Assembly (NCBI GenBank): GCA_043814315.1
Contig: JBDRKE010000010.1
Span: 66,896 to 130,895, forward strand
DNA length: 64,000 nucleotides
Direction: 5' to 3'
DNA from: Candidatus Omnitrophota bacterium
GTDB taxonomy: Bacteria > Omnitrophota > Gorgyraeia > Gygaellales > Profunditerraquicolaceae
Part shown: piece by piece, positions 1,601-59,734 of the stretch
Numbering within the stretch: the first letter of the stretch is position 1
How the letters are laid out: each line of letters starts with the position of its first letter
Position numbers and translations under genes: made by a program
Notes under the pieces: model-generated
Told to the model about the DNA's origin: nothing
Database searches by the model: none
What the model saw: only the letters and a program-made list of their open reading frames with translations

Positions 1601-1637
1601 ATCCAAAATTCAAAATCCAAAACTAAAGAGGAGTAAA

Positions 1638-2927
1638 ATGGCGAAGAAATTATGGGGAGGTAGATTCAGTAAAAAGGCTCATCCCCTGACGGAAGAGTTT
1701 ACAAAATCCATTTCGTTTGATTACAAACTGTTACATTATGATATTGCAGGGTCTCTGGCGCACGTAGGTATCCTGAAAAGCGCGGGAATCATTTCAGCTG
1801 TGGAGGCTGCAAAGATTTCCCAGGGGCTTAAGTCCATCAAGTTCGACTCTAGGCTTGCGGATTATCAAGAGGATGTCCATACTTTCATTCAGAACCAATT
1901 GCATAGGAGAATCGGGAAACTGGCGTTGAAATTACACACAGCACGCTCAAGAAATGATCAGGTCGTCTTTTCCACGAAAATGTATTGCAAGGATAACCTT
2001 AAAAAGCTAATACAGGAGATCGATGGTTTTAGCAGCGCTTTAGGAACTCAGGTGAAGAAGCAAGCTCAGCTTATTCTCCCCGGGTTTACCCATTTGCAGC
2101 ATGCTCAGCCGGTTTACCTGAAGGACTATCTGAATGCTTACGCGTTGATGCTTAACCGGGACAAAAAAAGACTGGAGCTCATCCAAAAGAATGAGAAAGC
2201 GACATTAGGAGCCGGTGCCCTTGCCGGTACACCTATTGCCGCTTTAAAATACGCTAAGTTCGCTACGGCCAATTCATTGGATGCCGTAAGCAATAGAGAT
2301 TTTGTCTTGGAAATCATCAGCGCCTTGTCTATCCTAGCCATGCATTTATCAAGGTTGGCTGAAGATTTGATTATTTGGTCCACCAAGGAATTTGACTTCG
2401 TGGAGATTGACGAGGCTTTTTGCACAGGCAGTTCTCTGATGCCACAGAAGAAAAATCCTGATGTGCTGGAGTTGGTGAGAGGCTATGCAGGAAGGCTTTA
2501 TGGTAATCTGGTAAGTGTTCTAACGATGATGAAGGGGTTACCGCTGACTTATAACAGAGATATGCAATTGGATAAGGAACCTTTGTTTGATTCATTTGAA
2601 ATCGTTTCCAGGGAATTAAAAGTATTAACCGGGCTCATCGAGACGCTTAAATTCAATGAGAAGAAAATAAAAGAACACTTAAAGGATGAGTCTTTATATG
2701 CCACTGATTTAGTGTATTATCTTGTCGATAGAAAGATTCCCTTTAAAGAGGCGCATACGGCTATCGGCAAATTAGTGAAATATTCTCTGGATCATGGAAT
2801 CCAGATCAAAGACATGCCGGAAAGTTTATTGAACAAGTTTTCGAATAAAATTGTTAAAAAAGAAATAATAAAATTATTCGATCCGTTAGTTTCTGTCAGG
2901 TCGAAAAAGTCAATTAAGAGGAAATAA
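1638..2927 (+). CDS. argH: argininosuccinate lyase
   Basis: 429 aa. N-terminus LWGGRF, the lyase-family signature GSSLMPQKKNPD, and adjacency to argG. Confidence 0.93.
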   Translation: MAKKLWGGRFSKKAHPLTEEFTKSISFDYKLLHYDIAGSLAHVGILKSAGIISAVEAAKISQGLKSIKFDSRLADYQEDVHTFIQNQLHRRIGKLALKLHTARSRNDQVVFSTKMYCKDNLKKLIQEIDGFSSALGTQVKKQAQLILPGFTHLQHAQPVYLKDYLNAYALMLNRDKKRLELIQKNEKATLGAGALAGTPIAALKYAKFATANSLDAVSNRDFVLEIISALSILAMHLSRLAEDLIIWSTKEFDFVEIDEAFCTGSSLMPQKKNPDVLELVRGYAGRLYGNLVSVLTMMKGLPLTYNRDMQLDKEPLFDSFEIVSRELKVLTGLIETLKFNEKKIKEHLKDESLYATDLVYYLVDRKIPFKEAHTAIGKLVKYSLDHGIQIKDMPESLLNKFSNKIVKKEIIKLFDPLVSVRSKKSIKRK

Positions 2928-2959
2928 GTAGCGGGTGGCTTGGACTGATGAGTATAAAA

Positions 2960-3192
2960 ATGCACCTGGCGAGGTGCGAGCGAATGGAGCTTTTAGCAAG
3001 AGGAGCTTGAGCATTTGAGGGAATCTCGAGGTCAACGCGAAGCGTTGGCAATCTCGGGACGGCTGTGGGTGTCTGAGCGACGAGCGAGAGCGCGAGGAGC
3101 GAGTTCCGCAGACGCCGAAAATGCGAAAGAACTCTTGCGTCCTGAGCGAAGCGAAGGAAAAGCGACCTGAGCGAGCAGCTTGGCAGGTGCAT
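2960..3192. repeat. 233-bp GC/purine-rich intergenic element bounded by a short inverted repeat
   Basis: Left end atgcacctg (2960..2968) is the reverse complement of right end caggtgcat (3184..3192). The interior is full of gagcgaagcgaagg / gagcgacgagcgag motifs related to the cores at 15996..16024 and 18648..18690. Confidence 0.6.
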
Positions 3193-3221
3193 GTAACCGT
3201 CAAATAGTTTGGTAAGATTCC

Positions 3222-4499
3222 ATGCACGACTTTAAATATAAAAACAATCAGCTTTATTGCGAACAGGTTAAAGTCGAGGATTTAGCCAGGAAATTCGGCA
3301 CGCCTCTTTACGTCTACAGTTACCGTACTTTGATAGACCATTTCCTTAAACTGCAACATGCTTTTAAGAGCATAAATCCCCTGATCTGTTTCTCCGCAAA
3401 ATCCAATTCCAATCTGGCTATCCTGAAAGCCCTGGTGGATAAGGGGGCGGGCCTGGATATCGTTTCGGGGGGTGAGCTTTACAGGGCGCTTCGCGTGGGT
3501 TGCCCGCCCGAAAGAATCGTCTATGCTTCCGTCGGGAAAACCGAGCGCGAGATAGAAGAGGCTATCCGCCGAAGGATCCTTTTCTTTAATGTAGAAAGCA
3601 CAGCGGAATTGGAAAATATCAACCGTATAGCCAGAAGACTCAAACGGATTACGCGCCTGGCCATACGCATCAACCCGGATGTTGAGCCAAAAACCCACAG
3701 GTATATTACCACGGGAAAATTGACCAATAAATTCGGCATAGATTTCAGAAGCGCCTATCAGATTTTAATGGTGCGCCAAGCCCTCTCGCATGTGAAAATA
3801 TCCGGTTTGCATATCCACATCGGCTCTCAGATAACAGAAAGTGCTCCTTATGTTGCCGCTATGACCAAAATGGCAGCGTTTATTGAAAAACTGAGGAAGA
3901 AAGGAATAGGCCTTGAGTATCTTAATATCGGGGGCGGCCTGGGTATTGTCTATAATCACGAAACTCCGCAAACAGCCGTCCACTTTGCCGGTAAGGTCTT
4001 GCCTTTGCTTAAAAGGACAGGTTTAAAGATTATCTTAGAGCCAGGCAGATTCATTGTCGGCAATGCCGGTATCCTGGTTACAAAAGTGTTGTATCTTAAA
4101 TCGAGCCCTAGAAAGAAATTTGTCATTGTCGATGCGGGAATGAATGACTTGATCCGGCCTGCTTTGTATAACGCCTATCATCAGATTCTGCCCTTACGCA
4201 ATACGCAATACGCAATACGCAATACGCAGAAAGTCGATATAGTGGGCCCGATATGCGAAAGTGGCGATTTCTTTGCCAAAGAAAGGCCATTGCCTCAAGT
4301 CAAAGAAGGCCAGTATCTGGCAGTCATGAGTGCGGGCGCTTACGGTTTTAGCATGGCCTCTAATTATAATTCGCGAAAGAGGCCGCAGGAAATCATGGTC
4401 TTAAAGAATAAGTCCTTTGTCATAAGAAAAAGAGAGAACGAAAAAGATTTGGTTTGTAACGAAGTCATCCCGTCTTTTCTGTTTAAGGATACAGTATGA
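3222..4499 (+). CDS. lysA: diaminopimelate decarboxylase
   Basis: 425 aa. Conserved blocks GTPLYVY, FSAKSNSN and GPICESGD, within a lysine-operon context. Confidence 0.9.
   Translation: MHDFKYKNNQLYCEQVKVEDLARKFGTPLYVYSYRTLIDHFLKLQHAFKSINPLICFSAKSNSNLAILKALVDKGAGLDIVSGGELYRALRVGCPPERIVYASVGKTEREIEEAIRRRILFFNVESTAELENINRIARRLKRITRLAIRINPDVEPKTHRYITTGKLTNKFGIDFRSAYQILMVRQALSHVKISGLHIHIGSQITESAPYVAAMTKMAAFIEKLRKKGIGLEYLNIGGGLGIVYNHETPQTAVHFAGKVLPLLKRTGLKIILEPGRFIVGNAGILVTKVLYLKSSPRKKFVIVDAGMNDLIRPALYNAYHQILPLRNTQYAIRNTQKVDIVGPICESGDFFAKERPLPQVKEGQYLAVMSAGAYGFSMASNYNSRKRPQEIMVLKNKSFVIRKRENEKDLVCNEVIPSFLFKDTV
4196..4228 (+). repeat. heptanucleotide tandem repeat (acgcaat, about 4.7 copies) inside lysA
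   Basis: Read directly: acgcaat x4 followed by acgca. It is translated in frame as RNTQYAIRNTQ, just upstream of the conserved VDIVGPICESGD block. Confidence 0.9.
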
Positions 4500-5335
4500 A
4501 AAAAATAGAGTTTACCAAGATGGTCGCTTCCGGGAATGATTTCGTTGTTGCTGAGAAAAAACAACTATCCGCTATCCGCTATCCGCTATCCGCTATAGCT
4601 AATCAGATATGCAATAGGAAGTATGGTATAGGCGCTGACGGGTTGCTTATTCTTGAGAAAACAAAGGCAGCGGATATCAGGATGCGCGTGTTTAACGCCG
4701 ATGGTTCAGAAGCCGAGATGTGCGGGAATGGGGCAAGGTGCGTCGCCCTGTGGTTGAGTTCAAAGTTCCTGCCTGCCCGGCAGGCAGGCAAAGTTCATGG
4801 TTTAGAGTATAAAATCCAAACAAAAGCCGGCATCATTAAAGCCCAAGTCAATGGCGCATTAATAAGAATAAAGCTGACTGACCCCGCCGCTATAAAATTA
4901 AACGTACCCATCAGGATAAACAAGAAAATGCTGCACGTTAATTTTGTCAACACGGGGGTTCCTCATGCCGTGATATTTGTGGAGGGGTTGGATAAAATAG
5001 AAGTTGTAAGTTTGGGCAGGCAGGTGCGTTTCCATAAGGCGTTCTCGCCCGCAGGGGCCAATGTGGATTTTGTGGAAGCCTTAAATGATCATACTCTCGG
5101 ATTGAGAACATATGAGAGGGGTGTTGAGGATGAAACTCTGGCCTGCGGCACAGGAGCGGTTGCCTCGGCTTTAGCATACGTTATGCGCTACGCGCGAAAC
5201 GCCAAACAAATAAGAGTGCATACCCAGGGCAAGGAGATATTAAAAGTCTATTTTGAGAGAACAGGCCATAAATTAAAGAATGTTTGGTTAGAAGGAAAAA
5301 CGAAGGTTATTTGCAAAGGAGCGTATTATGTTTAA
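4496..5335 (+). CDS. dapF: diaminopimelate epimerase
   Basis: 279 aa. Contains SGNDFVV and the catalytic-Cys contexts MCGNGARC and ACGTGA. Confidence 0.9.
   Translation: MKKIEFTKMVASGNDFVVAEKKQLSAIRYPLSAIANQICNRKYGIGADGLLILEKTKAADIRMRVFNADGSEAEMCGNGARCVALWLSSKFLPARQAGKVHGLEYKIQTKAGIIKAQVNGALIRIKLTDPAAIKLNVPIRINKKMLHVNFVNTGVPHAVIFVEGLDKIEVVSLGRQVRFHKAFSPAGANVDFVEALNDHTLGLRTYERGVEDETLACGTGAVASALAYVMRYARNAKQIRVHTQGKEILKVYFERTGHKLKNVWLEGKTKVICKGAYYV
4565..4596 (+). repeat. heptanucleotide tandem repeat (ctatccg, about 4.5 copies) inside dapF
   Basis: Read directly: ctatccg x4 followed by ctat. It is translated in frame as LSAIRYPLSAI. Confidence 0.9.
4768..4788. repeat. 21-nt palindrome cctgcctgcc-c-ggcaggcagg inside dapF
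   Basis: The 10-bp arms are identical to the intergenic perfect palindrome at 10562..10581. It is flanked by the direct repeat caaagttc (4761..4768 and 4789..4796) and encodes part of FLPARQAGK. Confidence 0.85.
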
Positions 5336-6203: not shown

Positions 6204-6206
6204 GAA

Positions 6207-6364
6207 GCGTAAAACGCAAAGCGAAAAGCGTAAAACTAAAGCGGAAAACTTCCCGTTCGGCTATTAAATTTATTGCGGGATCCCGCTTTTCAGAAAATAG
6301 CTTAGCGGGAAAAACGTTTTGAGCTTACAACTTTAACTTTACGCTTTGCGCTTTGAGTTTTACG
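6207..6364. repeat. modular hairpin element (cgtaaaac/gcaaag arms, gcgggatcccgc core)
   Basis: The left arm gcgtaaaacgcaaagcgaaaagcgtaaaactaaagcg is roughly the reverse complement of the right arm ...ctttaactttacgctttgcgctttgagttttacg. The core holds the 12-nt palindrome gcgggatcccgc (6285..6296) and gcgggaaaaa. Confidence 0.8.
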
Positions 6365-6383
6365 TTAAAGCGAGGTGCTTGAT

Positions 6384-7094
6384 ATGATTAAGCTAGGTGT
6401 AGCCGGTGTTTGCGGAAGAATGGGGAGGCGTATATTTGAGTTGGCCTCTGTGGATAGGGATTTTGAGTTGACCCTTGCCCTTGAGAAAAAAGGTACGCCC
6501 ATGATTGGCCGGGATATGGGTAAGCTTAAGATATCCTCCAGTCCCGACGGCCTATTCCTTATTGATTGTTTTATAGATTTTACTACTCCCGAGGCAAGCG
6601 AGATTCATCTAGGGTATGTGGCAAAATACAAGAAACCCGTTGTCCTGGGCACAACCGGATTAAACGAAGCTCAATTAAAAGAAATAGAAGAGGTATCTAA
6701 AGTTGTCCCCGTGGTATTCTCACCGAATATGGCTGTCGGTGTAAACGTTTTGTTTGCCCTTTTGCCTGAAATAGCTAAGAGATTAGGTTTGGATTACAGC
6801 GTGGAGATCATAGAGGCCCACCATAAGGCGAAAAAAGACGCTCCTTCAGGAACGGCCAAGAAGCTGGGGCAGATTTTAGCGGATACCGCTAAAAAAGAAA
6901 TTCCTATCCATGCCATCCGGCTGGGGGATATTATCGGTGACCATACGGTCATATTCTGCGGTAACTCTGAGCGCATCGAAATAAAACATCAGGCGCACTC
7001 ACGCGATTTGTTCGCCCTGGGTGCTTTAAAGGCAGCGAAATGGATTGTTGGTAAACCTGCCGGTTTGTATTCGATGCAGGATGTGTTAAGATAG
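6384..7094 (+). CDS. dapB: 4-hydroxy-tetrahydrodipicolinate reductase
   Basis: N-terminus MIKLGVAGVCGRMG (Rossmann fold), EAHHKAKKDAPSGTA and HQAHSRDLFALGAL. The ATG at 6384 is preferred over the GTG at 6375 because of the upstream gcgagg Shine-Dalgarno (SD) sequence. Confidence 0.85.
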   Translation: MIKLGVAGVCGRMGRRIFELASVDRDFELTLALEKKGTPMIGRDMGKLKISSSPDGLFLIDCFIDFTTPEASEIHLGYVAKYKKPVVLGTTGLNEAQLKEIEEVSKVVPVVFSPNMAVGVNVLFALLPEIAKRLGLDYSVEIIEAHHKAKKDAPSGTAKKLGQILADTAKKEIPIHAIRLGDIIGDHTVIFCGNSERIEIKHQAHSRDLFALGALKAAKWIVGKPAGLYSMQDVLR

Positions 7095-7165
7095 CGTAAA
7101 GTGCAAAGTGAAAAACGCAAAACTAAAACGCTTTAAGTTCTAACTTTACGCTTTGAGCTTTACGT
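7095..7165. repeat. coreless hairpin element (cgtaaag/gcaaag-type arms)
   Basis: gcgtaaagtgcaaagtgaaaaacgcaaaactaaaacg is followed directly by the imperfect complement ctttaagttctaactttacgctttgagctttacgt. Confidence 0.75.
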
Positions 7166-7184
7166 ACAACTTATAGGATAGAAT

Positions 7185-9620: not shown

Positions 9621-9643
9621 TTTTGAATTTTGACATTTGAATT
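9621..9643. repeat. single G/T-rich repeat arm (ttttgaattttgacatttgaatt)
   Basis: Matches the reverse complement of 35101..35123 (aattcaaatgtcaaaatccaaaa) at 22 of 23 positions by eye. Confidence 0.7.
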
Positions 9644-10476: not shown

Positions 10477-10486
10477 AATCAAAATA

Positions 10487-10610
10487 AGGTTTCATAAGGT
10501 TGCCTAAGGTTACATAATGTTCCATAAAGTTACGCCTTTGGTAACCTTACGTAACATTATGCCTGCCTGCCGGCAGGCAGGGAACCTCATGGTACCTTAT
10601 GTAACTTTAA
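10487..10610. repeat. modular hairpin element (cataaggtt-type arms, cctgcctgccggcaggcagg core)
   Basis: The left half is made of 9-10-nt units (tcataaggtt, cctaaggtt, acataatgtt, ccataaagtt). The right half holds their complements (aaccttacgt, aacattatg, aacctcatggt, accttatgt). A perfect 20-nt palindrome lies at 10562..10581. Confidence 0.8.
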
Positions 10611-10647
10611 TAATAAAATTAATAAATGAGAGGAGGTGAATTCGAAT

Positions 10648-10890: not shown

Positions 10891-10906
10891 TAAGAGAGAA
10901 AAAAGA

Positions 10907-10974
10907 GGGGGGGTCAGATCTATTCTTCTGACTCCGTTTCTAAAAAGAAAATAGATCTCACCCCCTTTTTTTTT
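10907..10974 (+). terminator. rho-independent terminator
   Basis: gggggtcagatctatt pairs with aatagatctcaccccc (one mismatch), followed by a run of nine T. Confidence 0.8.
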
Positions 10975-10992
10975 GCAAAAAGGACAAAAGCC

Positions 10993-12980: not shown

Positions 12981-15854
12981 ATGCATAATCATGACGCTAT
13001 TGTTATCCATGGTGCTAAAGAGCACAACCTTAAAAATATAAATCTTATCCTACCGCGCCAGAGACTGATTGTTGTTACAGGGTTATCTGGTTCGGGTAAA
13101 TCAAGCCTCGCCTTTGATACCATCTACGCGGAAGGCCAGCGTCGATTCGTGGAGAGCCTTTCCAGCTACGCGCGTCAGTTTTTAGAACAATTACAGAAGC
13201 CCGATGTCGAATATATCGGCGGATTATCGCCGACCATTGCCATTGAACAGCGTACAGCAGGCGGCAATCCGCGTTCCACGGTAGCCACCCAAACCGAGAT
13301 CTACGATTATTTAAGATTGCTTTTTGCCCGCATCGGAAGGGTTTATTGTTATCGGTGTCAACGGCCGATCAACAGACAAAGTTCCCAAGAGATTGTTGAT
13401 AGAATCATGGCCATGCCGGCCCAGACAGAGATGCAAATACTAGCTCCTGTTATCTCAGGAAGAAAAGGGGAATATAAAGAGATCTTCAGTTGGATTCAAA
13501 AATCAGGGTTCCTGCGTTGTCGCGTTGACGGTAAGATTTACGAATTGCCGTTAGATTTAAAGTTAGCAAAATATAAAATGCATCATATCGAGGTGGTCGT
13601 AGATAGATTAGTCCTAAGCCCGCAAGTAAAGAAAAGACTTACGGATTCCATCGAGACGGCACTTAAAGTAGGCAAAGGCACGGTTATTATTAGCCAGCTA
13701 GCCAGTTACCCAATTACCCTATCGAACCGGCAAACCGGCCAATCGGCCAACCGGCCAACCGGCAAACCGGCAAATCGGCCAACCGACTTAGTCTTCAGCG
13801 AACAGTACGCCTGCACAAAATGCGGGATCAGCTATGCACAAGTCCAGCCGCGCAATTTTTCTTTTAATTCACCCTACGGCGCCTGCCCGGAGTGCCACGG
13901 CCTTGGCACAAAACTAGAGTTTGATCCTGACTTAGTTATTTCGGACAGAAGCAAATCCATCCAGGAAGGAGCGCTTGAGCCCTGGAAGAGGGGAGGCAGG
14001 GGCTACATCCTCTATTATCGCTGGCTCATCCGGGAGCTGTCTTACAAGATGCATTTTGATTTAGACACTCCGTTTAAGAACCTGAGAAAGGAAGTGCAGA
14101 AGGCCGTACTTTTTGGGACGGATGAAGAGGTCAACGGCAAGCCCTTCGAAGGCGTGATTCCCCATCTGGAAAGGTTATTCCGGGAAACGGATAGCGATTA
14201 TTTAAAAGAAGAGATATCCAAATTCATGTCGAGCCTGAGTTGTTCCTTGTGCCAGGGGGCCAGACTTAAAAAGGAAAGCTTGTCTGTGAAGATTCAAGGC
14301 AAGAATATTTGGCAGATCGCCCAGATGTCTATCAAAGAAGCCAGAGGCTTCTTTAAAGGTCTGGATTTAAGCGAAAAAGAAAAAACGATTGCGCATCAGG
14401 CCTTGAAAGAGATTGTCCAGAAATTACAGTTTTGCGTGGATGTGGGGTTGGAGTATTTAACGCTGGACAGAAGAAGCTCGACGCTTTCCGGCGGAGAGGC
14501 GCAGAGGATTCGCCTGGCCACTCAGGTTGGATCCGGCCTTGTCGGAGTGTTGTATGTATTGGATGAGCCCAGTATCGGCCTGCACCAAAGGGACAACAAT
14601 AAATTGCTTTCGACATTGGAGGCGTTACGGGATCTGGGCAACACGTTGATTGTTGTGGAGCACGACGAGAGTACAATTCTTTCCTCTGACTATATCGTGG
14701 ATTTGGGGCCGGGAGCTGGCCGGCACGGCGGGGAAGTCGTATTCTGTGGCACAAAGGAAGAATTATTAAGGCATCCGGAGTCGCTGACGGCGAAATATTT
14801 AAGGCGCGAATTAAAGATCGAGATCCCTAAGAAGAGAAGGCCCTGGCAAGACAGGAAATTCCTTGTGGTTACCGGAGCCAGAGAGCACAATCTTAAAAAC
14901 ATAGAAGTGAAATTTCCTCTGGGTCTTTTTATCTGCGTGACGGGAGTTTCTGGTTCGGGCAAGTCCACTCTGGTCGATGAGATCCTGTTCAGAAGCCTCG
15001 CGCAAAAACACTACAAATCCAAAGATAAACCGGGGCTTCACGATAAGATTACAGGTATAGAGCTTATCGATAAAGTGATTGTCGTGGATCAGTCTCCCAT
15101 AGGCAGGACTCCCCGCTCGAATCCCGCAACCTACACAGGAATGTTTGGCCCTATCAGGGATTTATTCAGCAAGCTTCCCGAAGCCAAGGTGCGCGGATTT
15201 AAACCCGGCAGATTTTCTTTTAACGTAAAAGGGGGCCGTTGCGAGGCGTGCTCCGGGGATGGCATCAAGAAAATCGAGATGCATTTTCTTCCGGATGTGT
15301 ATGTGAAGTGCGATATCTGCAAGGGGAACAGGTTCAACGAATCCACCCTGGAAGTCAAATTCAAAGGCCAATCCATAGCGGATGTCTTAAGGATGACCGT
15401 AGAGGAGGCCTTGGACTTATTTGGCAATGTGCCAAAGATAAAGAACACGCTGGGCTATCTTTATGACGTAGGCTTGGGGTATATGACGCTGGGGCAGGCC
15501 GCCACAACGCTTTCCGGCGGAGAGGCACAGCGCATTAAGTTATCTAGCGAGCTGAGCAAGCGCTCTACGGGAAAGACCCTGTACATTTTGGATGAGCCGA
15601 CAACGGGATTGCATTTTGCCGATGTAGACAAGCTGCTTTGCGTGCTCCAAAGGTTAGTCGACAAAGGCAACACCGTGGTCGTTATCGAACATAACTTAGA
15701 AGTCATTAAATGTGCTGATTATATTATCGATCTTGGGCCTGAGGGGGGAGATAGAGGCGGAGAATTGGTGGTAGCGGGGACTCCCGAAGCGTTGCTTCGC
15801 TGCAAGGCGTCGTTTACGGCCGATGCCCTGAGAAAGGTGTTGAAGAGGCGCTGA
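12981..15854 (+). CDS. uvrA: excinuclease ABC subunit A
   Basis: N-terminus MHNHDAIVIHGAKEHNLKNI, two Walker A motifs (GLSGSGKSS and GVSGSGKST), two LSGGE signatures and zinc-finger Cys pairs. The ATG at 12981 is preferred over the longer ORF from 12894. Confidence 0.95.
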   Translation: MHNHDAIVIHGAKEHNLKNINLILPRQRLIVVTGLSGSGKSSLAFDTIYAEGQRRFVESLSSYARQFLEQLQKPDVEYIGGLSPTIAIEQRTAGGNPRSTVATQTEIYDYLRLLFARIGRVYCYRCQRPINRQSSQEIVDRIMAMPAQTEMQILAPVISGRKGEYKEIFSWIQKSGFLRCRVDGKIYELPLDLKLAKYKMHHIEVVVDRLVLSPQVKKRLTDSIETALKVGKGTVIISQLASYPITLSNRQTGQSANRPTGKPANRPTDLVFSEQYACTKCGISYAQVQPRNFSFNSPYGACPECHGLGTKLEFDPDLVISDRSKSIQEGALEPWKRGGRGYILYYRWLIRELSYKMHFDLDTPFKNLRKEVQKAVLFGTDEEVNGKPFEGVIPHLERLFRETDSDYLKEEISKFMSSLSCSLCQGARLKKESLSVKIQGKNIWQIAQMSIKEARGFFKGLDLSEKEKTIAHQALKEIVQKLQFCVDVGLEYLTLDRRSSTLSGGEAQRIRLATQVGSGLVGVLYVLDEPSIGLHQRDNNKLLSTLEALRDLGNTLIVVEHDESTILSSDYIVDLGPGAGRHGGEVVFCGTKEELLRHPESLTAKYLRRELKIEIPKKRRPWQDRKFLVVTGAREHNLKNIEVKFPLGLFICVTGVSGSGKSTLVDEILFRSLAQKHYKSKDKPGLHDKITGIELIDKVIVVDQSPIGRTPRSNPATYTGMFGPIRDLFSKLPEAKVRGFKPGRFSFNVKGGRCEACSGDGIKKIEMHFLPDVYVKCDICKGNRFNESTLEVKFKGQSIADVLRMTVEEALDLFGNVPKIKNTLGYLYDVGLGYMTLGQAATTLSGGEAQRIKLSSELSKRSTGKTLYILDEPTTGLHFADVDKLLCVLQRLVDKGNTVVVIEHNLEVIKCADYIIDLGPEGGDRGGELVVAGTPEALLRCKASFTADALRKVLKRR
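13725..13786 (+). repeat. degenerate octanucleotide tandem repeat (cMaaYcgg, about 7.5 units) inside uvrA
   Basis: aaccgg caaaccgg ccaatcgg ccaaccgg ccaaccgg caaaccgg caaatcgg ccaaccga, translated as NRQTGQSANRPTGKPANRPT. The same unit occurs non-coding at 51302..51332 and flanks the mtaB insert. Confidence 0.9.
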
Positions 15855-18520: not shown

Positions 18521-18536
18521 CATATAAGACAACATG

Positions 18537-18731
18537 ATAAATCCCAGATCCAAAATAAATCCCTGCCTGTGGCAGACAGGCAAAATCCCAAATCCAAAAC
18601 TATTTGGGATTTTGAAATTGGCACTTCGGGTTCGCCTCAGTGCCAATGGTGAGCGAAGTCCTGAGCTTGTCGAAGGACGAAGTCGAACCGTGGGATTTGT
18701 TTGGTAGTATTGGTATTATTTGGATTTTGTC
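18537..18731. repeat. modular hairpin element (aaatcccaaa / tttgggattt arms with two GC-rich cores)
   Basis: Left arm ataaatcccagatccaaaataaatcc, a gcctgtggcagacaggc hairpin, aaaatcccaaatccaaaac/tatttgggattttg, the core ggtgagcgaagtcctgagcttgtcgaaggacgaagtcgaac, then gggatttgtttggtagtattggtatt. Confidence 0.8.
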
Positions 18732-18753
18732 TGATTAACAGAGGAGGATAAGG

Positions 18754-19411: not shown

Positions 19412-19440
19412 CTGTTAACTGTTAACTGCAAACTGAGAAC
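19412..19440 (+). repeat. short heptamer-periodic tract (ctgttaa ctgttaa ctgcaaa ctgagaa)
   Basis: Read directly in the tolQ-tolR spacer. It is a single arm with no complementary partner nearby. Confidence 0.6.
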
Positions 19441-33547: not shown

Positions 33548-33686
33548 CAAATCCCAAATCCAAAATCCCAAATCCCAAACAAATCCCAAACACCAATTTC
33601 CAATATTTCAAACTTTAATGTTTCGGTCATTGGTCATTGGGGCATTGGTGCTTATTTGGAATTTGGTGCTTGGTACTTGGAATTTA
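33548..33686. repeat. modular hairpin element (aaatcccaaa.. / ..ttggaatttggtg arms)
   Basis: A/C-rich arm at 33548..33614 and complementary G/T-rich arm at 33626..33686. The right arm lies within the reading frame of the downstream gene. Confidence 0.8.
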
Positions 33687-35098: not shown

Positions 35099-35243
35099 TA
35101 AATTCAAATGTCAAAATCCAAAAAGAATCCCTGCCTTGCCGGCAGGCAGGCAAGGCAGGGAGGCAAATGTTAAAACAGAAGATTCATCGTTTTGAATTTT
35201 GTGCTTTGTGCTTATTTTGAATTTTGAGCTTTGTCATTTGAAT
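35099..35243. repeat. modular hairpin element (aattcaaatgtcaaaatccaaaa arm, ccctgccttgcc-ggcaggca-ggcaaggcaggg core)
   Basis: A 12-bp palindromic stem core lies at 35129..35160. The right arm ttttgaattttgtgctttgtgcttattttgaattttgagctttgtcatttgaat complements the left arm. Confidence 0.8.
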
Positions 35244-40030: not shown

Positions 40031-40069
40031 TATATATACAGCCCTTCACAAAATTCGTTTCGGGCTGTT

Positions 40070-46747: not shown

Positions 46748-47137
46748 ATGCGTATGTTTAAACCGAAAATAGGAATCAGTATAGCGATTATTTCGTTCTT
46801 CGTTCTTCGTTTTTCGTTCTTCGTTTACAGCCAGGAGAAGAACACCGATGAAACTAAAAGTGCGCGTAATCCCTTTATGCCTTTGGTCACAGCCGATGGC
46901 CGCCTGATCAACCTCGACAAAGATAAGACAAGGGCGGATTTGGTGGTGGAGGGTACGATGTTTGACAAGCATGGCCGTTCCTACGCGATCGTGAACGGTC
47001 TGGTCGTAGAAGTCGCAGATACAATAGACGGTTTCAGAGTCTTGAAGGTCGAACAGGGAAAGGTCACTTTTATGAAGGATGGGCAAACCAGGGTCGTAGA
47101 AGTAAAGAGTGAAGAGAAAAAGGAGGAGGAAAGGTGA
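46748..47137 (+). CDS. PilP-like small periplasmic protein
   Basis: Signal/TM segment and a beta-domain (LVVEGTMFDKHGRSYAIVNGLVVEVADTIDGFRVLKVEQGKVTF), directly upstream of and overlapping the secretin gene. Confidence 0.45.
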   Translation: MRMFKPKIGISIAIISFFVLRFSFFVYSQEKNTDETKSARNPFMPLVTADGRLINLDKDKTRADLVVEGTMFDKHGRSYAIVNGLVVEVADTIDGFRVLKVEQGKVTFMKDGQTRVVEVKSEEKKEEER

Positions 47138-50951: not shown

Positions 50952-51266
50952 ATGTATGCAGTGATTGAAGTTGGAGCAAAACAGTTTAGCGTAAAAAAGG
51001 ATGATATTATTGAGGTGGAAAAGCAGACCGCCGAAGAAGGTCAAGAGATAAGCCTGGATAAGGTGTTGTTTTTATCCAAGGATAAGAAAATTGAGGTGGG
51101 CCGGCCTTATCTTATCAATGTGTCGCTACGAGCCCTGGTTTTAAAGCATGGAAAAGGTGCAAAGGTCATTAGTTTTAAATATCGCCGAAGAAAGTCTAAG
51201 CATTGGACAAAGGGGCACAGGCAGCAATTGACCCGCCTTAAAATAAAAGATATTATTATAAGTTAG
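50952..51266 (+). CDS. rplU: 50S ribosomal protein L21
   Basis: MYAVIEVGAKQFSVKKDDII start and HRQQLTRLKI C-terminus. 104 aa, with an SD upstream of ATG 50952. Confidence 0.92.
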   Translation: MYAVIEVGAKQFSVKKDDIIEVEKQTAEEGQEISLDKVLFLSKDKKIEVGRPYLINVSLRALVLKHGKGAKVISFKYRRRKSKHWTKGHRQQLTRLKIKDIIIS

Positions 51267-51335
51267 CCTGTTTTCCTGTTAGTCGGTTAGCCTGTGGAAT
51301 TGGCAAACCGGCGAACCGGCCAACCGGCAAACAGC
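51267..51335. repeat. hairpin-type spacer with ccggcaaa-family octamer units
   Basis: cctgttttcctgttagtcggttagcctgt is followed by ggcaaaccggcgaaccggccaaccggcaaac (51302..51332). It fills the whole rplU-obg spacer. Confidence 0.75.
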
Positions 51336-51336
51336 A

Positions 51337-52290
51337 ATGTTCATAGATCAGGCAAAGATATACGTTAAAGCGGGAAGTGGCGGCAAAGGCTGCAATAGTT
51401 TCTATCGCGATAAGTATAGCCGGGGCGGCATTCCGGACGGAGGCAGCGCAGGTGATGGAGCCGACATTGTTATAAGGGCCGATAGAAACCTGCACACGCT
51501 GCTCGATTTTAAATACAACAGGCATTTTACTGGTTCGCACGGAGGCCACGGTTCAGGAAATAACAAAAAAGGTAAAGATGCGCCTCGTATTATCATCCGT
51601 GTTCCCTGCGGCACCACGGTCAAAGATTTAAAGACAGATTGCCTCTTACGCGATTTAGAAAAGGATCAGGATGAGTTTGTCGTGGCTCGTGGGGGCTCAG
51701 GGGGCAGAGGTAATAAACACTGCCGAGAAGCAGAAACGGGTGAGCTCGGAGAAGAGAGGGAGATTTTTCTTGATTTAAAACTCATAGCCGAAGTGGGCAT
51801 TGTGGGTTTTCCCAATGTTGGCAAGTCTACGCTGATTTCCCGTATTTCCAATGCCAGGCCGCAAATAGCCTCTTACCCTTTTACCACGAAATTTCCCGTG
51901 CTGGGGGTGGTTCGTTCCTCGCAGAAGTCTTTCGTTATTGCGGATATTCCCGGCTTGATAGAAGGCTCCTCCCAGAGCAGGGGCCTTGGAGATAAATTCT
52001 TAAGGCACGTAGAGCGCACAAAAATCCTTATCCACGTCGTGGATATGTCAGGGGTTGAAGGGAGAGATCCCCTGCAGGATTACAAGATTATAAACAGGGA
52101 GCTCAAAAGTTATGCCAAAGGTATCGAAAAAAAACCGCAGGTCATTGCAGCCAATAAGATGGATTTAGAAGGAGCCAAAGAAAACCTAAAACGATTCAAT
52201 AAAGCCGTAAGGAAGAAAGTTTATTGTATATCTGCCCTAAAACACGAAGGGCTAAAGGAGCTCGTTGAAACAGTCGCAAGAAAGCTATAA
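51337..52290 (+). CDS. obg: GTPase Obg
   Basis: Glycine-rich Obg fold (GSGGKGCNSF..GGIPDGGSAGDG) and the G domain motifs GFPNVGKST, DIPGLIEG and NKMD. At 317 aa it lacks a C-terminal extension. Confidence 0.92.
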   Translation: MFIDQAKIYVKAGSGGKGCNSFYRDKYSRGGIPDGGSAGDGADIVIRADRNLHTLLDFKYNRHFTGSHGGHGSGNNKKGKDAPRIIIRVPCGTTVKDLKTDCLLRDLEKDQDEFVVARGGSGGRGNKHCREAETGELGEEREIFLDLKLIAEVGIVGFPNVGKSTLISRISNARPQIASYPFTTKFPVLGVVRSSQKSFVIADIPGLIEGSSQSRGLGDKFLRHVERTKILIHVVDMSGVEGRDPLQDYKIINRELKSYAKGIEKKPQVIAANKMDLEGAKENLKRFNKAVRKKVYCISALKHEGLKELVETVARKL

Positions 52291-54594: not shown

Positions 54595-54596
54595 AT

Positions 54597-54708
54597 GGTT
54601 AAATCCCTATTTAAAAATCCCAAACAAAACATTTGGATTTGGGATTTGTTTGGTAGTATTGGGATTTTGGATTTGTTTGGGATTTGGGATTTGGAAATTG
54701 GGATTTTC
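54597..54708. repeat. modular hairpin element (aaatccc.. / tttgggattt.. arms)
   Basis: Short A/C arm at 54601..54630 and a longer G/T arm at 54631..54708 that contains gggatttgtttggtagtattgggatt (54641..54666). Confidence 0.8.
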
Positions 54709-54713
54709 CAGGC

Positions 54714-57310: not shown

Positions 57311-57895
57311 GTGATATATTGGGTTTCGCGTTTTCTGTGTTTTTTCTTGTTAAAGATACTATGTCATTTGAAAGTGCGGGGAGAAGAGCATATCCCCAAA
57401 AAAGGGGGGTTTATCCTGGCCGCTAACCACGTGAGCTTTCTGGATCCCCTTGCTTTAGGGGCTGTATGCCCCAGAAAAATGAATTATATGGCGCGTCATG
57501 ATTTATTTTCTCGACCGGTACTGGGCTGGTGGTTGTTTCAGATAGGTGCTTTTCCGGTAAAAAGGAATTCCGCTGATTTGTCTGCTTTAAAGGAAGCGAT
57601 GAGATGCGTTAAAAAAGGCAGGGGCCTGCTTTTGTTCCCCGAAGGCAGCCGTCAATCCGAAAGCCTTACCGCTAATCCTCAAGCCGGCATCGGTTTTTTG
57701 GCGGCTAAACTCGGCTGTCCCGTGATTCCGGCCTTTGTCAAAGGCTCAGAAATGGCCTTGCCCAAAGGAGCCAGATTTTTGAAGTCCGCAAAGATAACTG
57801 TGCATTTCGGTCAGCAAATTCTTATAGAAAGGAGGATGCCTTATCAAGATATCGCGCAGCTTATCATGGCACGTATCAGGCATCTTTCATGTTAG
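57311..57895 (+). CDS. plsC: 1-acyl-sn-glycerol-3-phosphate acyltransferase
   Basis: Contains the ANHVSFLDP (HX4D) and FPEGSR motifs. 194 aa. Confidence 0.8.
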   Translation: MIYWVSRFLCFFLLKILCHLKVRGEEHIPKKGGFILAANHVSFLDPLALGAVCPRKMNYMARHDLFSRPVLGWWLFQIGAFPVKRNSADLSALKEAMRCVKKGRGLLLFPEGSRQSESLTANPQAGIGFLAAKLGCPVIPAFVKGSEMALPKGARFLKSAKITVHFGQQILIERRMPYQDIAQLIMARIRHLSC

Positions 57896-58022
57896 ATAGT
57901 CGCTTCTTTCCATCCGTTATCCTTTCGTTATCGTCTTTAGATTCAAAAATCTCAAAGTGAAGGGGGGTATATTTTAAAATTCAAAATTAAAAATCCAAAA
58001 TTCAAAAATAAAGGAGAAATAA

Positions 58023-59564
58023 ATGAATGAAACAAAATCAGAACTGGAAGAGCTGTATAATCAGAGTATCAGGCTTATCAAAGAAGGGCAGGTGATAACG
58101 GGCAAGATCGTTACGATAAAGACCAAAGAGGTACTGGTGGATGTAGGATTTAAATCAGAGGGGATCGTCCCGATTGCGGAATTCAGTTCACAGGATCTGG
58201 AAGCCGGCAAGGAACTTGAGTTTTTTGTCGAATCCATAGAGAATGATGCGGGTAACATCGAGCTGTCGCGCGAAAAAGCCATACGCATCCAGGGATGGGA
58301 CAGGATCGTCAAGTTTTCTCAGACCGGCGAGTTGGTGGAAGGCAGGCCTATTAAAAAGGTCAAAGGGGGATTTCTAGTTGATGTGATGGGTATCGAGGGG
58401 TTTCTCCCTTCCTCGCTTTCGGCTTTCAAGGGTGTGGCCGAAAGAGAAATCATGTACAAGCCTTTTAAGTTCAAGATCGTCAAGATAAACAACTTAAGAA
58501 GAAGCATCATTGTCAGCCGCAGGGAGGCGGTGCAGAAAGCAAAAGAGGAGGTCAAGGATAAGATTTGGCAGGACTTGAAGATCGGTAATATTTATCCCGG
58601 CACGGTCAAGGCCATAACGGATTTTGGTGCCTTTGTGGACTTGGGAGGAGTGGATGGCCTCTTGCATATCACGGATATGTCCTGGTCTAAGATCAGCCAT
58701 CCTTCGGAAATTGTGGCCTTGGGAGACAAGATCGAAGTCATGGTGTTGAATTTTGACAAGGAATCGGGAAAGATATCGCTCGGCTTAAAGCAGAGGCTCC
58801 CTGACCCCTGGCAGGATATAGAGAAGAAATTTATCGTCGGTTCCAAAATCAAAGGCAAGGTCGTCAATATCCTTCCTTAAGGAGTATTTGTGGAACTAGA
58901 GAAGGGTATCGAGGGGCTCATCCATGTTTCTGAAATCTCTTGGACAAAAAGGATCAATAATCCGAATGAGATGTTTGCTATCGCAGATATGGTGGAAACT
59001 CAGATCCTTAACGTAGATAAGGATTCCCGCAGGATATCCTTGAGCCTGAAACAGCTCGAGCAGAATCCGTGGCTGGAAGCCGAATCTAAATACCCTGCCG
59101 GAACCAAAATCACGGGAAAAGTGAGAGGATTCACAGATTACGGAGCCTTTGTTGAGTTGGATAGTAACCTGGAAGGGATGATCCATGTATCGGATATCTC
59201 CTGGACAAAAAGGATAGCGCATCCTCAGGATGTTCTTAAGAAAGGTCAGAAGATTGAGGCCATAGTACTCTCTGTGGACAGCCAGAATCGCCGTATCGTG
59301 TTAGGCTTAAAGCAGCTGCAGTCAAACCCCTGGCCCGAGATCGCTGCCAAATATCCTTTAGATACCGTCTTGGAAGCAGAGACTGTCAGTATCACAGAGT
59401 TCGGCGTATTTGTTAAGATAGAAGAGGAACTCGAAGGTTTGGTGTATGCCAGCGAGATAGACAGGGAGACCGTTTCACAATTGAAACCCGGGGATAAGTT
59501 TAAGGTAAAAATAATCAAGGTGGATGTGGAGCAGAACAAGATTGGACTGTCGGCAAAGATATAA
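58023..59564 (+). pseudogene. rpsA: 30S ribosomal protein S1, contiguous frame interrupted by one in-frame TAA (58878..58880)
   Basis: ORFs 58023..58880 and 58890..59564 are in the same frame. Across the junction the translation reads [29 protein letters not shown], where the other S1 repeats of this protein have F/Y-G-A/V-F-V. The label pseudogene is provisional; a sequencing error or a split gene is equally possible. Confidence 0.85.
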
Positions 59565-59567
59565 TGT

Positions 59568-59734
59568 TAAATCCAAAATCCAAATATTACCAAATCCAAA
59601 ATAAATCCCAATCTCTCCCGCATAAGCGGGATCCCGCTAGACGTTACAAGTTGCGCGGGAAAAATCCCAAATAGTTTTGGATTTTGGATTTGGGATTTGT
59701 TTGGTAGTATCGGTATTAGTGGGATTTGGGGTTT
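59568..59734. repeat. modular hairpin element (aaatccaaaa / ttttggattt arms, gcgggatcccgc core)
   Basis: Left arm aaatccaaaatccaaatattaccaaatccaaaataaatccc. The core is cccgcataagcgggatcccgc...gcgcgggaaaaa, with the palindrome at 59626..59637. The right arm is agttttggattttggatttgggatttgtttggtagtatcggtatt. Confidence 0.85.

What the first reader, a model, noticed from the sequence alone, without database searches (positions are those of the whole stretch)
1601..59734. A family of modular long-hairpin elements fills nearly every operon junction
The same architecture recurs at most intergenic gaps. It consists of an A/C-rich arm built from degenerate 7-10-nt units, often a GC-rich palindromic core, then a G/T-rich arm that is the approximate reverse complement of the first.

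Full examples are 6207..6364, 7095..7165, 10487..10610, 18537..18731, 33548..33686, 35099..35243, 54597..54708 and 59568..59734. Single arms occur at 1601..1625, 9621..9643, 19412..19440 and 57975..58012.

The unit sequence differs from element to element (aaatccca; cgtaaaac/gcaaag; cataaggtt; aattcaaa), but the layout and polarity are constant: the A/C arm follows the upstream stop and the G/T arm precedes the downstream start. Some arms are near-identical between distant loci in opposite orientation (9621..9643 matches the reverse complement of 35101..35123 at 22 of 23 positions).

The layout resembles REP/BIME-like or MITE-like elements, but with arm sequence that appears generated locally. 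Because all genes are co-oriented, these would be intercistronic RNA hairpins, so roles in processing, stability or termination are possible.
Basis: partly seen in the sequence, partly recalled or inferred. Interest (0 to 1): 0.8.

Follow-up and report, generated by a model that had tools for sequence, protein, structure and literature searches.

The report
Heptamer-built foldback repeats between Omnitrophota genes
Many gaps between same-direction genes in this Omnitrophota chromosome hold hairpin-forming repeat DNA built from runs of 7-base units plus small GC-rich palindromes; it most resembles selfish REP/MITE-like DNA, is found across the phylum, and also sits in frame inside essential genes.

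Summary
The window is a chromosome segment of a Candidatus Omnitrophota MAG with every gene on one strand.

The hairpins are real. Five of the eight "full" examples fold far better than shuffles (z -3.3 to -7); the other three do so only weakly. They occupy about 14 of 65 gene junctions, which is half of the long spacers, not "nearly every" junction.

They are not unique local inventions. Arms and cores recur at unrelated loci and in other Omnitrophota species, as 80-89% identical copies at non-orthologous sites.

The arms are runs of 7-8-nt units. Period-7 tandem arrays dominate 1.2 Mb of Omnitrophota DNA, nine times the shuffled level, even inside coding genes. There, different species carry different heptamer arrays in the same LysA loop.

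Two GC-rich stem-loop modules combine freely with different arms. One of them (CCTGCCTG-loop-CAGGCAGG) inserts cleanly and in frame into arrays. It also occurs in a phage contig and in metagenome contigs of very different GC content.

I found no sign of RNA-level selection on the transcribed strand: no U-tract, no Rfam match, and presence at orthologous junctions is variable.

Best reading: non-autonomous foldback repeat DNA, with REP/BIME, MITE and cyanobacterial STRR/SDR as analogues. Any effect on the RNA is secondary. This is a new variant of a known kind.

The parts
1599..1625 (.). Single A/C-rich heptamer array (AAATCCA x3.4) between the argG stop and the argH Shine-Dalgarno site
   Evidence: TRF; sequence; member of direct-repeat families D3/D4/D7
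2946..3203 (.). Long inverted repeat rich in GAGCGA(G/C) 7-nt units in the argH-lysA spacer.
   Evidence: Inverted repeat I3. MFE -114 kcal/mol, z -4.0. TRF period 7 at 3075-3103. The spacer is absent in L004 and 91 nt in L001.
4195..4228 (+). Perfect TACGCAA x4.9 array, in frame, in a variable loop of lysA
   Evidence: The same loop carries other heptamers in other species.
4565..4596 (+). Perfect CTATCCG x4.6 array, in frame, near the N-terminus of dapF
4768..4788 (.). 21-nt palindrome CCTGCCTGCCCGGCAGGCAGG inserted in frame in dapF, between two TTCAAAG units
   Evidence: (D20)
6207..6364 (.). Hairpin with GCGTAAAAC/GCAAAG-type arms and a double stem-loop core TCCCG..CGGGATCCCGC..GCGGGA (core about 6245-6310) in the dapA-dapB spacer
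   Evidence: z about -7; inverted repeat I1; core alignment A6
7095..7165 (.). Shorter hairpin of the same arm type in the dapB-aminotransferase spacer. That spacer is only 22 nt in L001 and L004.
   Evidence: z -2.3; arm similarity to 6208-6364
9621..9643 (.). Single G/T arm (TTTTGAATTTTGACATTTGAATT), a half copy of the AATGACAAAT...CATTTGTCATT family
   Evidence: 22/23 match to the reverse complement of 35101-35123
10484..10610 (.). Hairpin with 10-nt units (ATAAGGTTNC) and the palindrome CCTGCCTGCCGGCAGGCAGG at 10562-10581
   Evidence: z -4.9/-5.5; TRF period 10; palindrome
13682..13785 (+). Two direct 8-nt arrays (TTAGCCAG-like, then CCGGCAAA-like) forming a 26-aa in-frame insertion in uvrA. 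Same family as 51255-51340. Not itself a single hairpin.
   Evidence: (D1); fold z -1.5
15881..15922 (.). A/C heptamer array (AAATCCC type) just after the uvrA stop, at or before the start of the TPR gene
   Evidence: (D4)
18537..18731 (.). Composite hairpin with AAATCCM arms, palindrome variant CCCTGCCTGTGGCAGACAGG at 18561-18580, and the shared block TGGGATTTGTTTGGTAGTAT at 18691. The orthologous spacer is 14 nt in L004.
   Evidence: z -3.3/-4.6; D10
19412..19440 (.). Single CTGTTAA-type heptamer array in the exbB-exbD spacer
33548..33686 (.). Decayed member: an A/C heptamer run followed by a G/T run, weakly complementary
   Evidence: z -0.35 to -1.8; sequence similarity to other members
35099..35243 (.). 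Copy of the cross-species family TAATGACAAATGAC...GTCATTTGACATTA with the extended palindrome 35129-35161 nested in its left arm
   Evidence: z about -5.4; alignment A4
46792..46825 (+). TTCGTTC x4.9 array inside ORF 46748-47137
51255..51340 (.). Hairpin of opposite polarity (TTAGCCTG units, then CCGGCAAA units)
   Evidence: D1; z 5.0; z -2.2
54597..54708 (.). AAATCCC/GGGATTT hairpin with the shared block TGGGATTTGTTTGGTAGTAT at 54640
   Evidence: I6; D10; z -2.8
57975..58012 (.). Single A-rich heptamer array (AAAATTC x4.6) directly upstream of the Shine-Dalgarno site of an S1-domain gene
59568..59734 (.). AAATCCA hairpin with the double stem-loop core (GCGGGATCCCGC at 59626-59637). Its arms are about 82% identical to the hairpin at a different junction in Omnitrophica SM23_72 (L001 9866-9986).
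   Evidence: z -5.7/-6.5

Best explanation
These are non-coding, non-autonomous 'foldback' repeat elements. They belong to a repeat-DNA system found throughout Candidatus Omnitrophota.

Anatomy. Each element has three kinds of part:
(a) a run of degenerate 7-8-nt units (occasionally 10-nt);
(b) the approximate reverse complement of that run;
(c) optionally one of two GC-rich stem-loop modules placed in or between the runs. These are CCTGCCTG-loop-CAGGCAGG, and TCCCGC-loop-GCGGGATCCCGC-loop-GCGGGA.

Shown here:
- Unit runs arise and are remodelled in place by unit-wise duplication.
- Complete hairpins are copied to unrelated sites, and their consensus is kept between species.
- The first GC module moves on its own, inserts without target duplication, and is strongly enriched inside arrays.

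Inferred:
- The machinery is replication slippage plus template switching on hairpin-forming single-stranded DNA, possibly with a hairpin-recognising (HUH/RAYT-like) enzyme for dispersal.
- Copies survive only where they do no harm. That means the few bases between a stop codon and the next Shine-Dalgarno site in co-directional operons, and surface loops of proteins, where only in-frame, stop-free versions remain.
- Because they are co-transcribed, they will form stable stem-loops in polycistronic mRNA. There they probably act, as REP/BIME and Correia elements do, as 3'-exonuclease barriers or RNase III substrates. This would be a by-product, not the reason they exist.
For: Organism and layout:
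- Omnitrophota MAG. Housekeeping genes all on one strand. 94% of 1198 ORF calls in 83 loci are on the same strand.

Reality of the hairpins.

Phylum-wide occurrence:
- 100 of 454 spacers of 35 nt or more in 82 loci from different species (plus the window) have inverted-repeat z >= 4.
- At the orthologous dapA-dapB junction, 38 of 74 species carry 40-389-nt inserts of very different sequence, and 36 have 35 nt or less.

Dispersal:
- Full-length copies 80-89% identical occur with random flanks, within genomes (L061 x3, L059 x2, L078 x2) and between genomes.
- A swapped unit order between the two arms is shared by all copies (alignment A4).
- The hairpin is kept in all 5 copies aligned, with 6 of 50 pairs showing compensatory changes.
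- Window copies share TGGGATTTGTTTGGTAGTAT.

Heptamer process:
- Period 7 accounts for 162 of 579 arrays, against 18 in shuffled sequence. Period 8: 60 vs 20. Period 14: 54 vs 3.
- 36 of 48 near-perfect arrays have period 7, and 25 of those lie inside ORFs.
- In the LysA loop, 9 of 40 species are strongly periodic, against 1 of 347 control windows. Units are species-specific and resemble the flanking conserved codons.

GC module:
- It makes clean 21-nt in-frame insertions that keep the array in phase.
- 5 of 20 copies lie in strongly periodic flanks, against 1 of 2000 control positions.
- The same 20-mer occurs in a real phage contig that has the same arm/core layout.
- It occurs in at least 120 metagenome stretches spanning 32-64% GC (5th-95th percentile).
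- It forms the variable arm of a tRNA-Met.
- Modules combine with different arm types.

No RNA-strand signature: G.U 119 vs A.C 110.

Stability within a population: three assemblies 99.7-99.96% identical carry an identical hairpin.
Against: - No transposase, target-site duplication or conserved target motif was found, so the means of dispersal is unknown.
- Some orthologous copies are better conserved than the flanking genes. L021/L051: 95% (BLAST; 90-100% in 40-nt windows) against 62-88% in the flanks. L044/L085: 85% against 65-68%. This suggests sequence-level constraint, and therefore possibly a function.
- The exact placement between stop codon and Shine-Dalgarno site would also fit a selected role.
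- Only about 20 kb per relative was sampled, and the rest of the source genome could not be fetched. Copy numbers per genome are therefore unknown.
- Gene starts in the relatives were called heuristically.
Confidence: 0.58

Rival explanations
1. Selected intercistronic RNA elements. The stem-loops are kept because they set differential mRNA stability, act as RNase III or other processing sites, or attenuate transcription within very long one-directional operons.
For: - They fill exactly the stop-to-SD interval and leave the SD free.
- Their folds are stable.
- The hairpin is preserved across copies, with some compensatory pairs.
- The L021/L051 and L044/L085 copies are more conserved than the neighbouring coding DNA.
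Against: - G.U pairs do not exceed A.C mismatches, 119 vs 110, p = 0.6.
- No U-tract follows any window element, whereas canonical terminators exist elsewhere in the window (10900-10975, 39998-40031).
- No Rfam match.
- The element is absent from half of the species at the same junction, and different families occupy the same junction.
- The same building blocks sit inside coding regions and in a tRNA.
Confidence: 0.2
2. Purely local mutational by-products. Each hairpin grows in place from a small palindrome by slippage and quasi-palindrome template switching, with no transfer between sites.
For: - Units often resemble adjacent conserved codons, and species-specific arrays occupy one LysA loop.
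- There are 66 distinct canonical heptamers among 97 arrays.
- GC palindromes lie at or near the apex of hairpins.
Against: - Copies of 100-135 nt at 80-89% identity occur at non-orthologous sites in the same and in different species, and they share internal asymmetries.
- Distant arrays within one genome share units three times more often than arrays from different genomes do (19% vs 5.9%, p = 1e-5).
- An identical 20-mer palindrome occurs in contigs of very different GC content and in a phage.
Confidence: 0.12
3. DNA-level functional arrays. The 7-nt units are iterated binding sites for a host protein (nucleoid, replication or segregation factor, or regulator). Alternatively, the G-rich arms form G-quadruplexes, as proposed for GGGAATC and GGGGAYT repeats in Xanthomonas and Nostoc.
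For: - Family sequences are conserved across species.
- The fixed unit length is 7.
- GGGATTT units resemble the published G-rich heptamers (PMC4692102).
Against: - Units are extremely diverse.
- No canonical G4 motif occurs on either strand of the window.
- Arrays occur in coding loops of unrelated enzymes.
- Presence at a given site is not conserved.
Confidence: 0.07
4. Assembly or low-complexity artefact, or a chance pattern in A/T-rich spacers.
For: MAG assemblies can mis-join repeats, and the arms are of low complexity.
Against: - The same elements occur in dozens of MAGs from different studies and assemblers.
- They are identical in three independent assemblies of one population.
- In-frame arrays keep the ORFs intact.
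- Statistics against shuffled sequence are strong.
Confidence: 0.02

Closest known systems
REP/BIME of enterobacteria and REPIN-RAYT systems of Pseudomonas (Bertels & Rainey 2011, PMC3116915)
   Same: - Short GC-rich imperfect palindromes with conserved stems and variable loops.
- Mosaic, modular combinations with other motifs.
- Long hairpins about 100 nt in size.
- Location in spacers at the 3' ends of genes within operons.
- A family consensus kept across related species.
- No target-site duplication.
   Different: - No sequence similarity to these families.
- Here the arms are runs of 7-8-nt units rather than a second REP.
- The elements are not strictly extragenic; they also occur in frame in lysA, dapF and uvrA.
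- No RAYT gene could be looked for.
- The palindrome also occurs in contigs of 32-71% GC and in a phage.
Cyanobacterial STRR heptamer arrays and small dispersed repeats (SDR; Elhai et al. 2008, recalled from memory, the paper is not held; cited in PMC4390886). Also heptamer repeats of Xanthomonas/Nostoc (PMC4692102) and Beggiatoaceae (PMC4679880).
   Same: - Heptanucleotide tandem arrays dominate.
- Arrays lie in spacers close to start codons.
- Some arrays occur as inverted pairs (Xanthomonas).
- Very small (about 21-27 nt) repeat modules insert precisely, without target duplication, into other repeats.
   Different: - A different phylum and different sequences.
- Here the units are highly diverse, not one favoured heptamer.
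- Inverted arrays forming long hairpins are the rule rather than the exception.
- Most near-perfect arrays lie inside ORFs, whereas the literature reports that units in multiples of three predominate in coding DNA.
Correia/NEMIS elements of Neisseria and other bacterial MITEs (own knowledge)
   Same: - 100-160-nt elements with inverted ends.
- Located in spacers and co-transcribed with neighbouring genes.
- They fold into hairpins that are RNase III substrates.
- Presence or absence varies between relatives.
   Different: - Correia elements have defined 26-bp terminal inverted repeats and a TA target duplication.
- Here I found no consistent duplication, and the whole arm is repetitive.
- No parent IS is known.
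Rickettsia palindromic elements (own knowledge)
   Same: Palindromic repeat DNA that inserts in frame into essential protein-coding genes at tolerant surface positions.
   Different: RPEs are 100-150 bp and genus-specific. Here the coding insertions are 21-nt palindromes and arrays of about 30-100 nt.
Integron attC sites in cassette arrays (own knowledge)
   Same: Imperfect inverted repeats of variable sequence after successive co-oriented genes.
   Different: - The genes here are syntenic housekeeping genes conserved across 80 species, not cassettes.
- The ends show no RYYYAAC/GTTRRRY boxes.
- Most genes lack an element.

Membership tests
REP/BIME - REPIN | Short GC-rich imperfect palindrome with a conserved sequence, present in many copies | tested here: met
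   The stem CCTGCCTG/CAGGCAGG is conserved and the loop varies: about 20 copies in 12 of 83 sampled genomes. A second module, TCCCGC..GCGGGATCCCGC..GCGGGA, is present in 3 genomes.
REP/BIME - REPIN | Strictly extragenic location | tested here: not met
   In-frame copies occur in dapF, lysA and other ORFs.
REP/BIME - REPIN | Replicative unit is a doublet of two inverted REPs forming the hairpin | tested here: not met
   The long arms are heptamer runs, not second copies of the palindrome.
REP/BIME - REPIN | Cognate RAYT (Y1 HUH transposase) gene flanked by the repeats | not testable with these tools
   The whole genome is unavailable; the source contig beyond the window could not be fetched.
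MITE (including Correia) | Terminal inverted repeats and a size of 50-500 bp | tested here: met
   Elements are 70-195 nt with complementary ends.
MITE (including Correia) | Target-site duplication of fixed length | tested here: not met
   Copies of the family in alignment A4 have no common flanking duplication. Palindrome insertions leave the arrays in phase, with no added repeat.
MITE (including Correia) | Related autonomous IS with the same ends | not tested
   None was noticed in the sampled loci, but no systematic transposase search was possible.
Heptamer SSR / STRR-SDR type repeats | Over-representation of tandem arrays with a 7-nt unit | tested here: met
   162 of 579 arrays have period 7, against 18 in shuffled sequence. 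36 of 48 near-perfect arrays have period 7.
Heptamer SSR / STRR-SDR type repeats | Small (about 21-27-nt) module inserted precisely, without duplication, into other repeats | tested here: met
   21-nt insertions keep array phase in L004, L040, L064, L051 and at window 4768. Enrichment in periodic flanks: 5 of 20 vs 1 of 2000.
Heptamer SSR / STRR-SDR type repeats | Sequence homology to the cyanobacterial STRR/SDR families | not tested
Intrinsic terminator | GC-rich stem directly followed by a U-tract | tested here: not met
   The 12 nt after each 3' arm have no T run of 4 or more. The terminator scan flags none of the elements on the + strand.
Any Rfam RNA family | Covariance-model match | tested here: not met
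   Only tRNA-Ala is found, at gathering score and at E <= 0.1.
Integron attC | R''/R' boxes (RYYYAAC...GTTRRRY) after mobile cassettes near an intI gene | tested here: not met
   The element ends lack the boxes. The genes are conserved, syntenic housekeeping genes.

The most novel reading that the evidence does not exclude
The 20-22-nt stem-loop CCTGCCTG-loop-CAGGCAGG is an undescribed, ultra-small mobile DNA found in contigs of very different GC content. It is mechanistically coupled to 7-nt arrays, which would be either its landing pads or its footprints.

Together, the palindrome and the arrays would do three things:
- build modular foldback hairpins at operon junctions;
- write species-specific peptide cassettes into fixed loops of essential enzymes (LysA, DapF, UvrA);
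- travel on phages.

That would amount to a new mode of small-scale genome remodelling, not just another REP family.
Probability: 0.25. Interest if true: 0.75.

Novelty: new variant of a known kind. Interest (0 to 1): 0.6.

Why it matters
Omnitrophota are abundant, uncultured, small-celled bacteria with almost entirely one-directional gene order. How they separate expression within such long co-directional gene runs is unknown.

A phylum-wide population of hairpin repeats sitting exactly between stop codons and ribosome-binding sites is an obvious candidate to shape mRNA stability. It is also a practical hazard for assembly and for gene-start calling: several ORF calls in this window run into the elements.

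The heptamer arrays inside essential genes show a unit-length-specific mutation process strong enough to override the usual preference for multiples of three in coding DNA. The small palindrome, shared with a phage and with contigs of very different GC content, may be a tractable example of very small mobile DNA.

Tried and rejected
- RNALfold scanning did not discriminate: every 260-nt window folds to about -70 kcal/mol.
- BLAST self-hits and strict Watson-Crick local alignment under-detect the degenerate window elements.
- Clustering of all 'gaps' was contaminated by coding DNA, because of my heuristic start calls.
- tRNA targeting of the palindrome. Several flanks look tRNA-like, but in-silico excision restored a tRNA only in L111, so no enrichment is claimed.
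- The palindrome as the apex of pre-existing hairpins. The 10 flanking positions pair no better than controls on average (2.70 vs 2.66). Only 3.7% vs 0.6% have 7 or more pairs.
- Target-site-duplication 'footprint' model for the heptamer arrays. It is not supported, because insertions are phase-neutral without added repeats.
- G-quadruplex reading: no motif in the window.
- Integron attC reading: rejected (see the membership test).
- The cross-species arm consensus was not found in viral contigs.
- Fetching the rest of the source contig failed.
- Literature searches for Omnitrophota repeats and for the palindrome sequence returned nothing relevant.
- Elhai 2008 could not be read.

Full report
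**What the window is.** All long ORFs lie on the + strand. They encode ordinary housekeeping functions: argG, argH, lysA, dapF, dapA, dapB, panC, uvrA, exbB, tyrS, S1-domain proteins and type IV pilus parts. DapB is 100% identical to a protein of a 'Candidatus Omnitrophota bacterium' MAG on a 133-kb contig. The next relatives are 80-89% identical and are also Omnitrophota. Gene order is conserved in relatives. This is a bacterial chromosome, not a phage or an integron.

**Checking the observation.** I read all eight 'full' elements and folded them against dinucleotide shuffles.
- Five are clearly exceptional: 6204-6383 (z about -7), 10477-10635 (-5), 18521-18753 (-3.3 to -4.6), 35091-35253 (-5.4) and 59565-59740 (-6).
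- Three are weak: 7090-7170 (-2.3), 54595-54712 (-2.8) and 33545-33690 (-1.8).
- As a class, spacers fold better than length-matched coding controls: 10 of 26 with z < -3 against 0 of 78, p = 1e-6. Two of those ten are ordinary terminators (10900-10975, 39998-40031).
- The single arms are tandem heptamer arrays, and the 22/23 inverted match is correct.
- The claim of 'nearly every junction' is too strong. Of 65 junctions, 38 are 30 nt or less and 24 are 60 nt or more. About 14 carry a hairpin or a single array.
- The 'constant polarity' argument fails on logic. A hairpin with an A/C-rich 5' arm and a G/T-rich 3' arm looks the same on the other strand, so it cannot reflect gene orientation. It also fails on fact: 51255-51340 and 13682-13785, and many elements in relatives, have the other polarity.

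**Local inventions or families?** The window copies share blocks such as TGGGATTTGTTTGGTAGTAT at 18691, 54640 and 59691. I fetched 80 loci from different GTDB Omnitrophota species around dapB.
- At the orthologous dapA-dapB junction, 36 of 74 species have 35 nt or less (a bare Shine-Dalgarno site). The other 38 carry 40-389 nt, mostly hairpins, of very different sequence. Many have arms built of 6-8-nt units specific to the element.
- In all, 100 of 454 spacers of 35 nt or more have an inverted-repeat score with z >= 4. The long-armed ones mostly have period 7 and sit 0-17 nt after the stop codon and 12-50 nt before the start.
- A family of about 135 nt (TAATGACAAATGAC...GTCATTTGACATTA) occurs three times in 20 kb of one genome, in three other species, and, with a palindrome nested in it, at window 35099-35243.
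- Copies at sites with unrelated flanks are 80-89% identical, within and between genomes. All share the same swapped unit order between the arms, and the hairpin is kept (50 pairs, 6 with compensatory changes).
- Whole hairpins are therefore copied from place to place. The window's 59568-59734 arms are about 82% identical to the hairpin at a different junction in Omnitrophica SM23_72.

**The heptamer process.**
- TRF on 1.23 Mb (the window plus 82 loci) gives 162 of 579 arrays with period 7. The same sequences shuffled give 18. Period 8 gives 60 against 20, and period 14 gives 54 against 3. Periods 10 and 11 are at chance level.
- Of 48 near-perfect arrays with three or more copies, 36 have period 7, and 25 of those lie inside ORFs.
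- In the window these are TACGCAA x4.9 in lysA, CTATCCG x4.6 in dapF and TTCGTTC x4.9 in ORF 46748-47137. A 26-aa insertion in uvrA made of 8-nt units belongs to the same family as the spacer element at 51255.
- Across 40 species, the same LysA loop carries TACGCAA, AGGTGTC, AAAGTATC, GTCACAAA, CTATCCG, ACGACCA and other units. It is often 84 nt long in total, and non-array species have shorter loops. L004 has a single TTA-CGC-AAA where the window has the TACGCAA array.
- Under a strict test, 9 of 40 loops are periodic against 1 of 347 control windows.
- Units are diverse: 66 canonical heptamers in 97 arrays. Even so, distant arrays in one genome share a unit three times more often than arrays from different genomes.
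- Heptamers are known to be the commonest long simple repeats in many bacteria and have been ascribed to polymerase slippage (PMC4692102, PMC4679880). The same literature expects multiples of three in coding DNA, which is not what is seen here.

**The cores.** There are two modules.
- The first is C(C)CTGCCTG-loop-CAGGCAGG(G), with a conserved stem and a variable loop. It lies at window 4768 (in dapF), 10562, 18561 and 35129, and in 11 other sampled genomes.
- In coding DNA this module is 21 nt long. It sits inside heptamer or octamer arrays without breaking their phase, so there is no target duplication. 5 of 20 copies have strongly periodic flanks, against 1 of 2000 control positions.
- The second module is TCCCGC-loop-GCGGGATCCCGC-loop-GCGGGA. 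It is the core of 6207-6364 and 59568-59734 and also occurs in L004 and L007.
- Each core is found with different arm types, so the elements are truly modular.

**The first palindrome outside Omnitrophota.**
- The exact 20-mer of the first core occurs in 35 stretches of IMG/VR contigs, most of them 54-68% GC.
- One of these, L087, encodes a lambda-family portal protein. Its gene junctions have the same layout: GGTGAGA-type arms, one or two palindromes, then CTAACCT-type arms, followed by the SD and ATG.
GC spans 32-64% at the 5th-95th percentile. Joined flanks are periodic at lag 7 in 10 of 121 sites, against none at lag 7 among the controls.
- In L111 it forms the variable arm of a tRNA-Met that ARAGORN still recognises.
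- I found no paper containing this sequence, and none on repeats of this kind in Omnitrophota.

**Function.**
- Nothing in Rfam matches, even at E <= 0.1.
- No element is followed by a U-tract, and the window has no G-quadruplex motif.
- If the hairpins were maintained as RNA on the transcribed strand, G.U pairs should outnumber A.C oppositions. In 65 long hairpins between co-directional genes the counts are 119 and 110 (p = 0.6).
- Presence at a given junction is not conserved. Examples: dapB-aminotransferase, 90 nt in the window against 22 nt in relatives; TPR-exbB, 233 nt against 14 nt.
- Against a purely 'junk' view, the L021/L051 hairpin is 90-100% identical in 40-nt windows where the flanking genes are 62-88%. 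L044/L085 copies are 85% identical against 65-68% in the flanks. Either family-level homogenisation or sequence constraint is acting.
- Three independent assemblies of one population (99.7-99.96% identical) carry an identical hairpin, so the elements are neither artefacts nor hypermutable on that timescale.

**Conclusion.**
- The finding is real but over-generalised.
- The best-supported reading (confidence about 0.58) is a phylum-wide system of non-autonomous foldback repeats, built from heptamer arrays and small REP-like palindromes.
- These arise by unit-wise duplication, are copied as whole hairpins, and are tolerated only between stop codons and Shine-Dalgarno sites or in protein surface loops.
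- Stem-loop effects on polycistronic mRNA are likely but secondary. The dispersal machinery is unknown.
- The closest analogues are REP/BIME-REPIN, Correia-type MITEs, and the cyanobacterial STRR/SDR repeats. The system fails defining tests for each: it is not extragenic-only, it is not a REP doublet, it has no target duplication, and it shows no homology to them.
- I therefore class it as a new variant of a known kind.

Noticed in passing
window 4176-4259, and the orthologous lysA loop in L001-L086: One surface loop of LysA (between YHxILP and GPICE) carries a different near-perfect 7- or 8-nt tandem array in different Omnitrophota species. The total length is often the same, 84 nt. In L051, L055, L073 and L082 extra palindromic inserts are nested in the array.
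   Followed up: partly
L087 10560-10700 and 11200-11350 (IMGVR_UViG_3300029258_002399; L116 has the same sequence): A 67% GC phage contig (lambda-family portal protein) has the same modular junction hairpins: GGTGAGA-type arm, CCTGCCTGCCGGCAGGCAGG once or twice, then a CTAACCT-type arm, followed by the SD and ATG.
   Followed up: partly
L111 2239-2330 (also L088 around 8616): A tRNA-Met gene carries the 20-nt palindrome as a long variable arm. ARAGORN still calls it, and in-silico excision gives a standard 72-nt tRNA-Met.
   Followed up: partly
window 29406-29558, and about 32220-32357: Five tandem mini-hairpin units of about 29.5 nt (GGATAATTTGCTGACCCGTAAGAGCGGGCAAATTA) lie upstream of paralogous small genes (29569-29964, 29989-30399). 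Further copies flank tRNA-Ala(cgc) at 32112-32187. This is a different repeat type, with no Rfam match.
   Followed up: no
window 10636-10890: A conserved small basic protein (84 aa) with an internal duplication (KxGIKRxxGYLYxxDKKGDVSCAKM twice), no Pfam domain in relatives, followed by a canonical bidirectional terminator at 10900-10975.
   Followed up: no
L002 6105-6125 vs L001 and L003: Within one population (99.7-99.96% identity), a 17-nt tandem duplication (ATGAGTGTGGGAGGTGT) splits the aspartate dehydrogenase gene in one assembly only.
   Followed up: no
window 58023-58880 and 58890-59564: Two adjacent S1-domain ORFs (three S1 domains each), separated by a stop codon and 9 nt, look like a ribosomal protein S1 gene split in two.
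   Followed up: no
L021 6017-6134 vs L051 4630-4747: The orthologous dapA-dapB hairpin (GTTCTAA units) is 90-100% identical in 40-nt windows between two species whose flanking genes are only 62-88% identical.
   Followed up: partly
window 33513, 15875, 54684, 59697 (longest-ORF starts): Longest-ORF calls run upstream into stop-free A/C- or G/T-rich arms. Automatic gene starts next to these elements are probably wrong; likely true starts include ATG 33687.
   Followed up: partly
all 83 loci: About 94% of 1198 heuristic ORF calls lie on the same strand as dapB, so extreme one-directional gene order around this locus is shared by the sampled Omnitrophota species.
   Followed up: no
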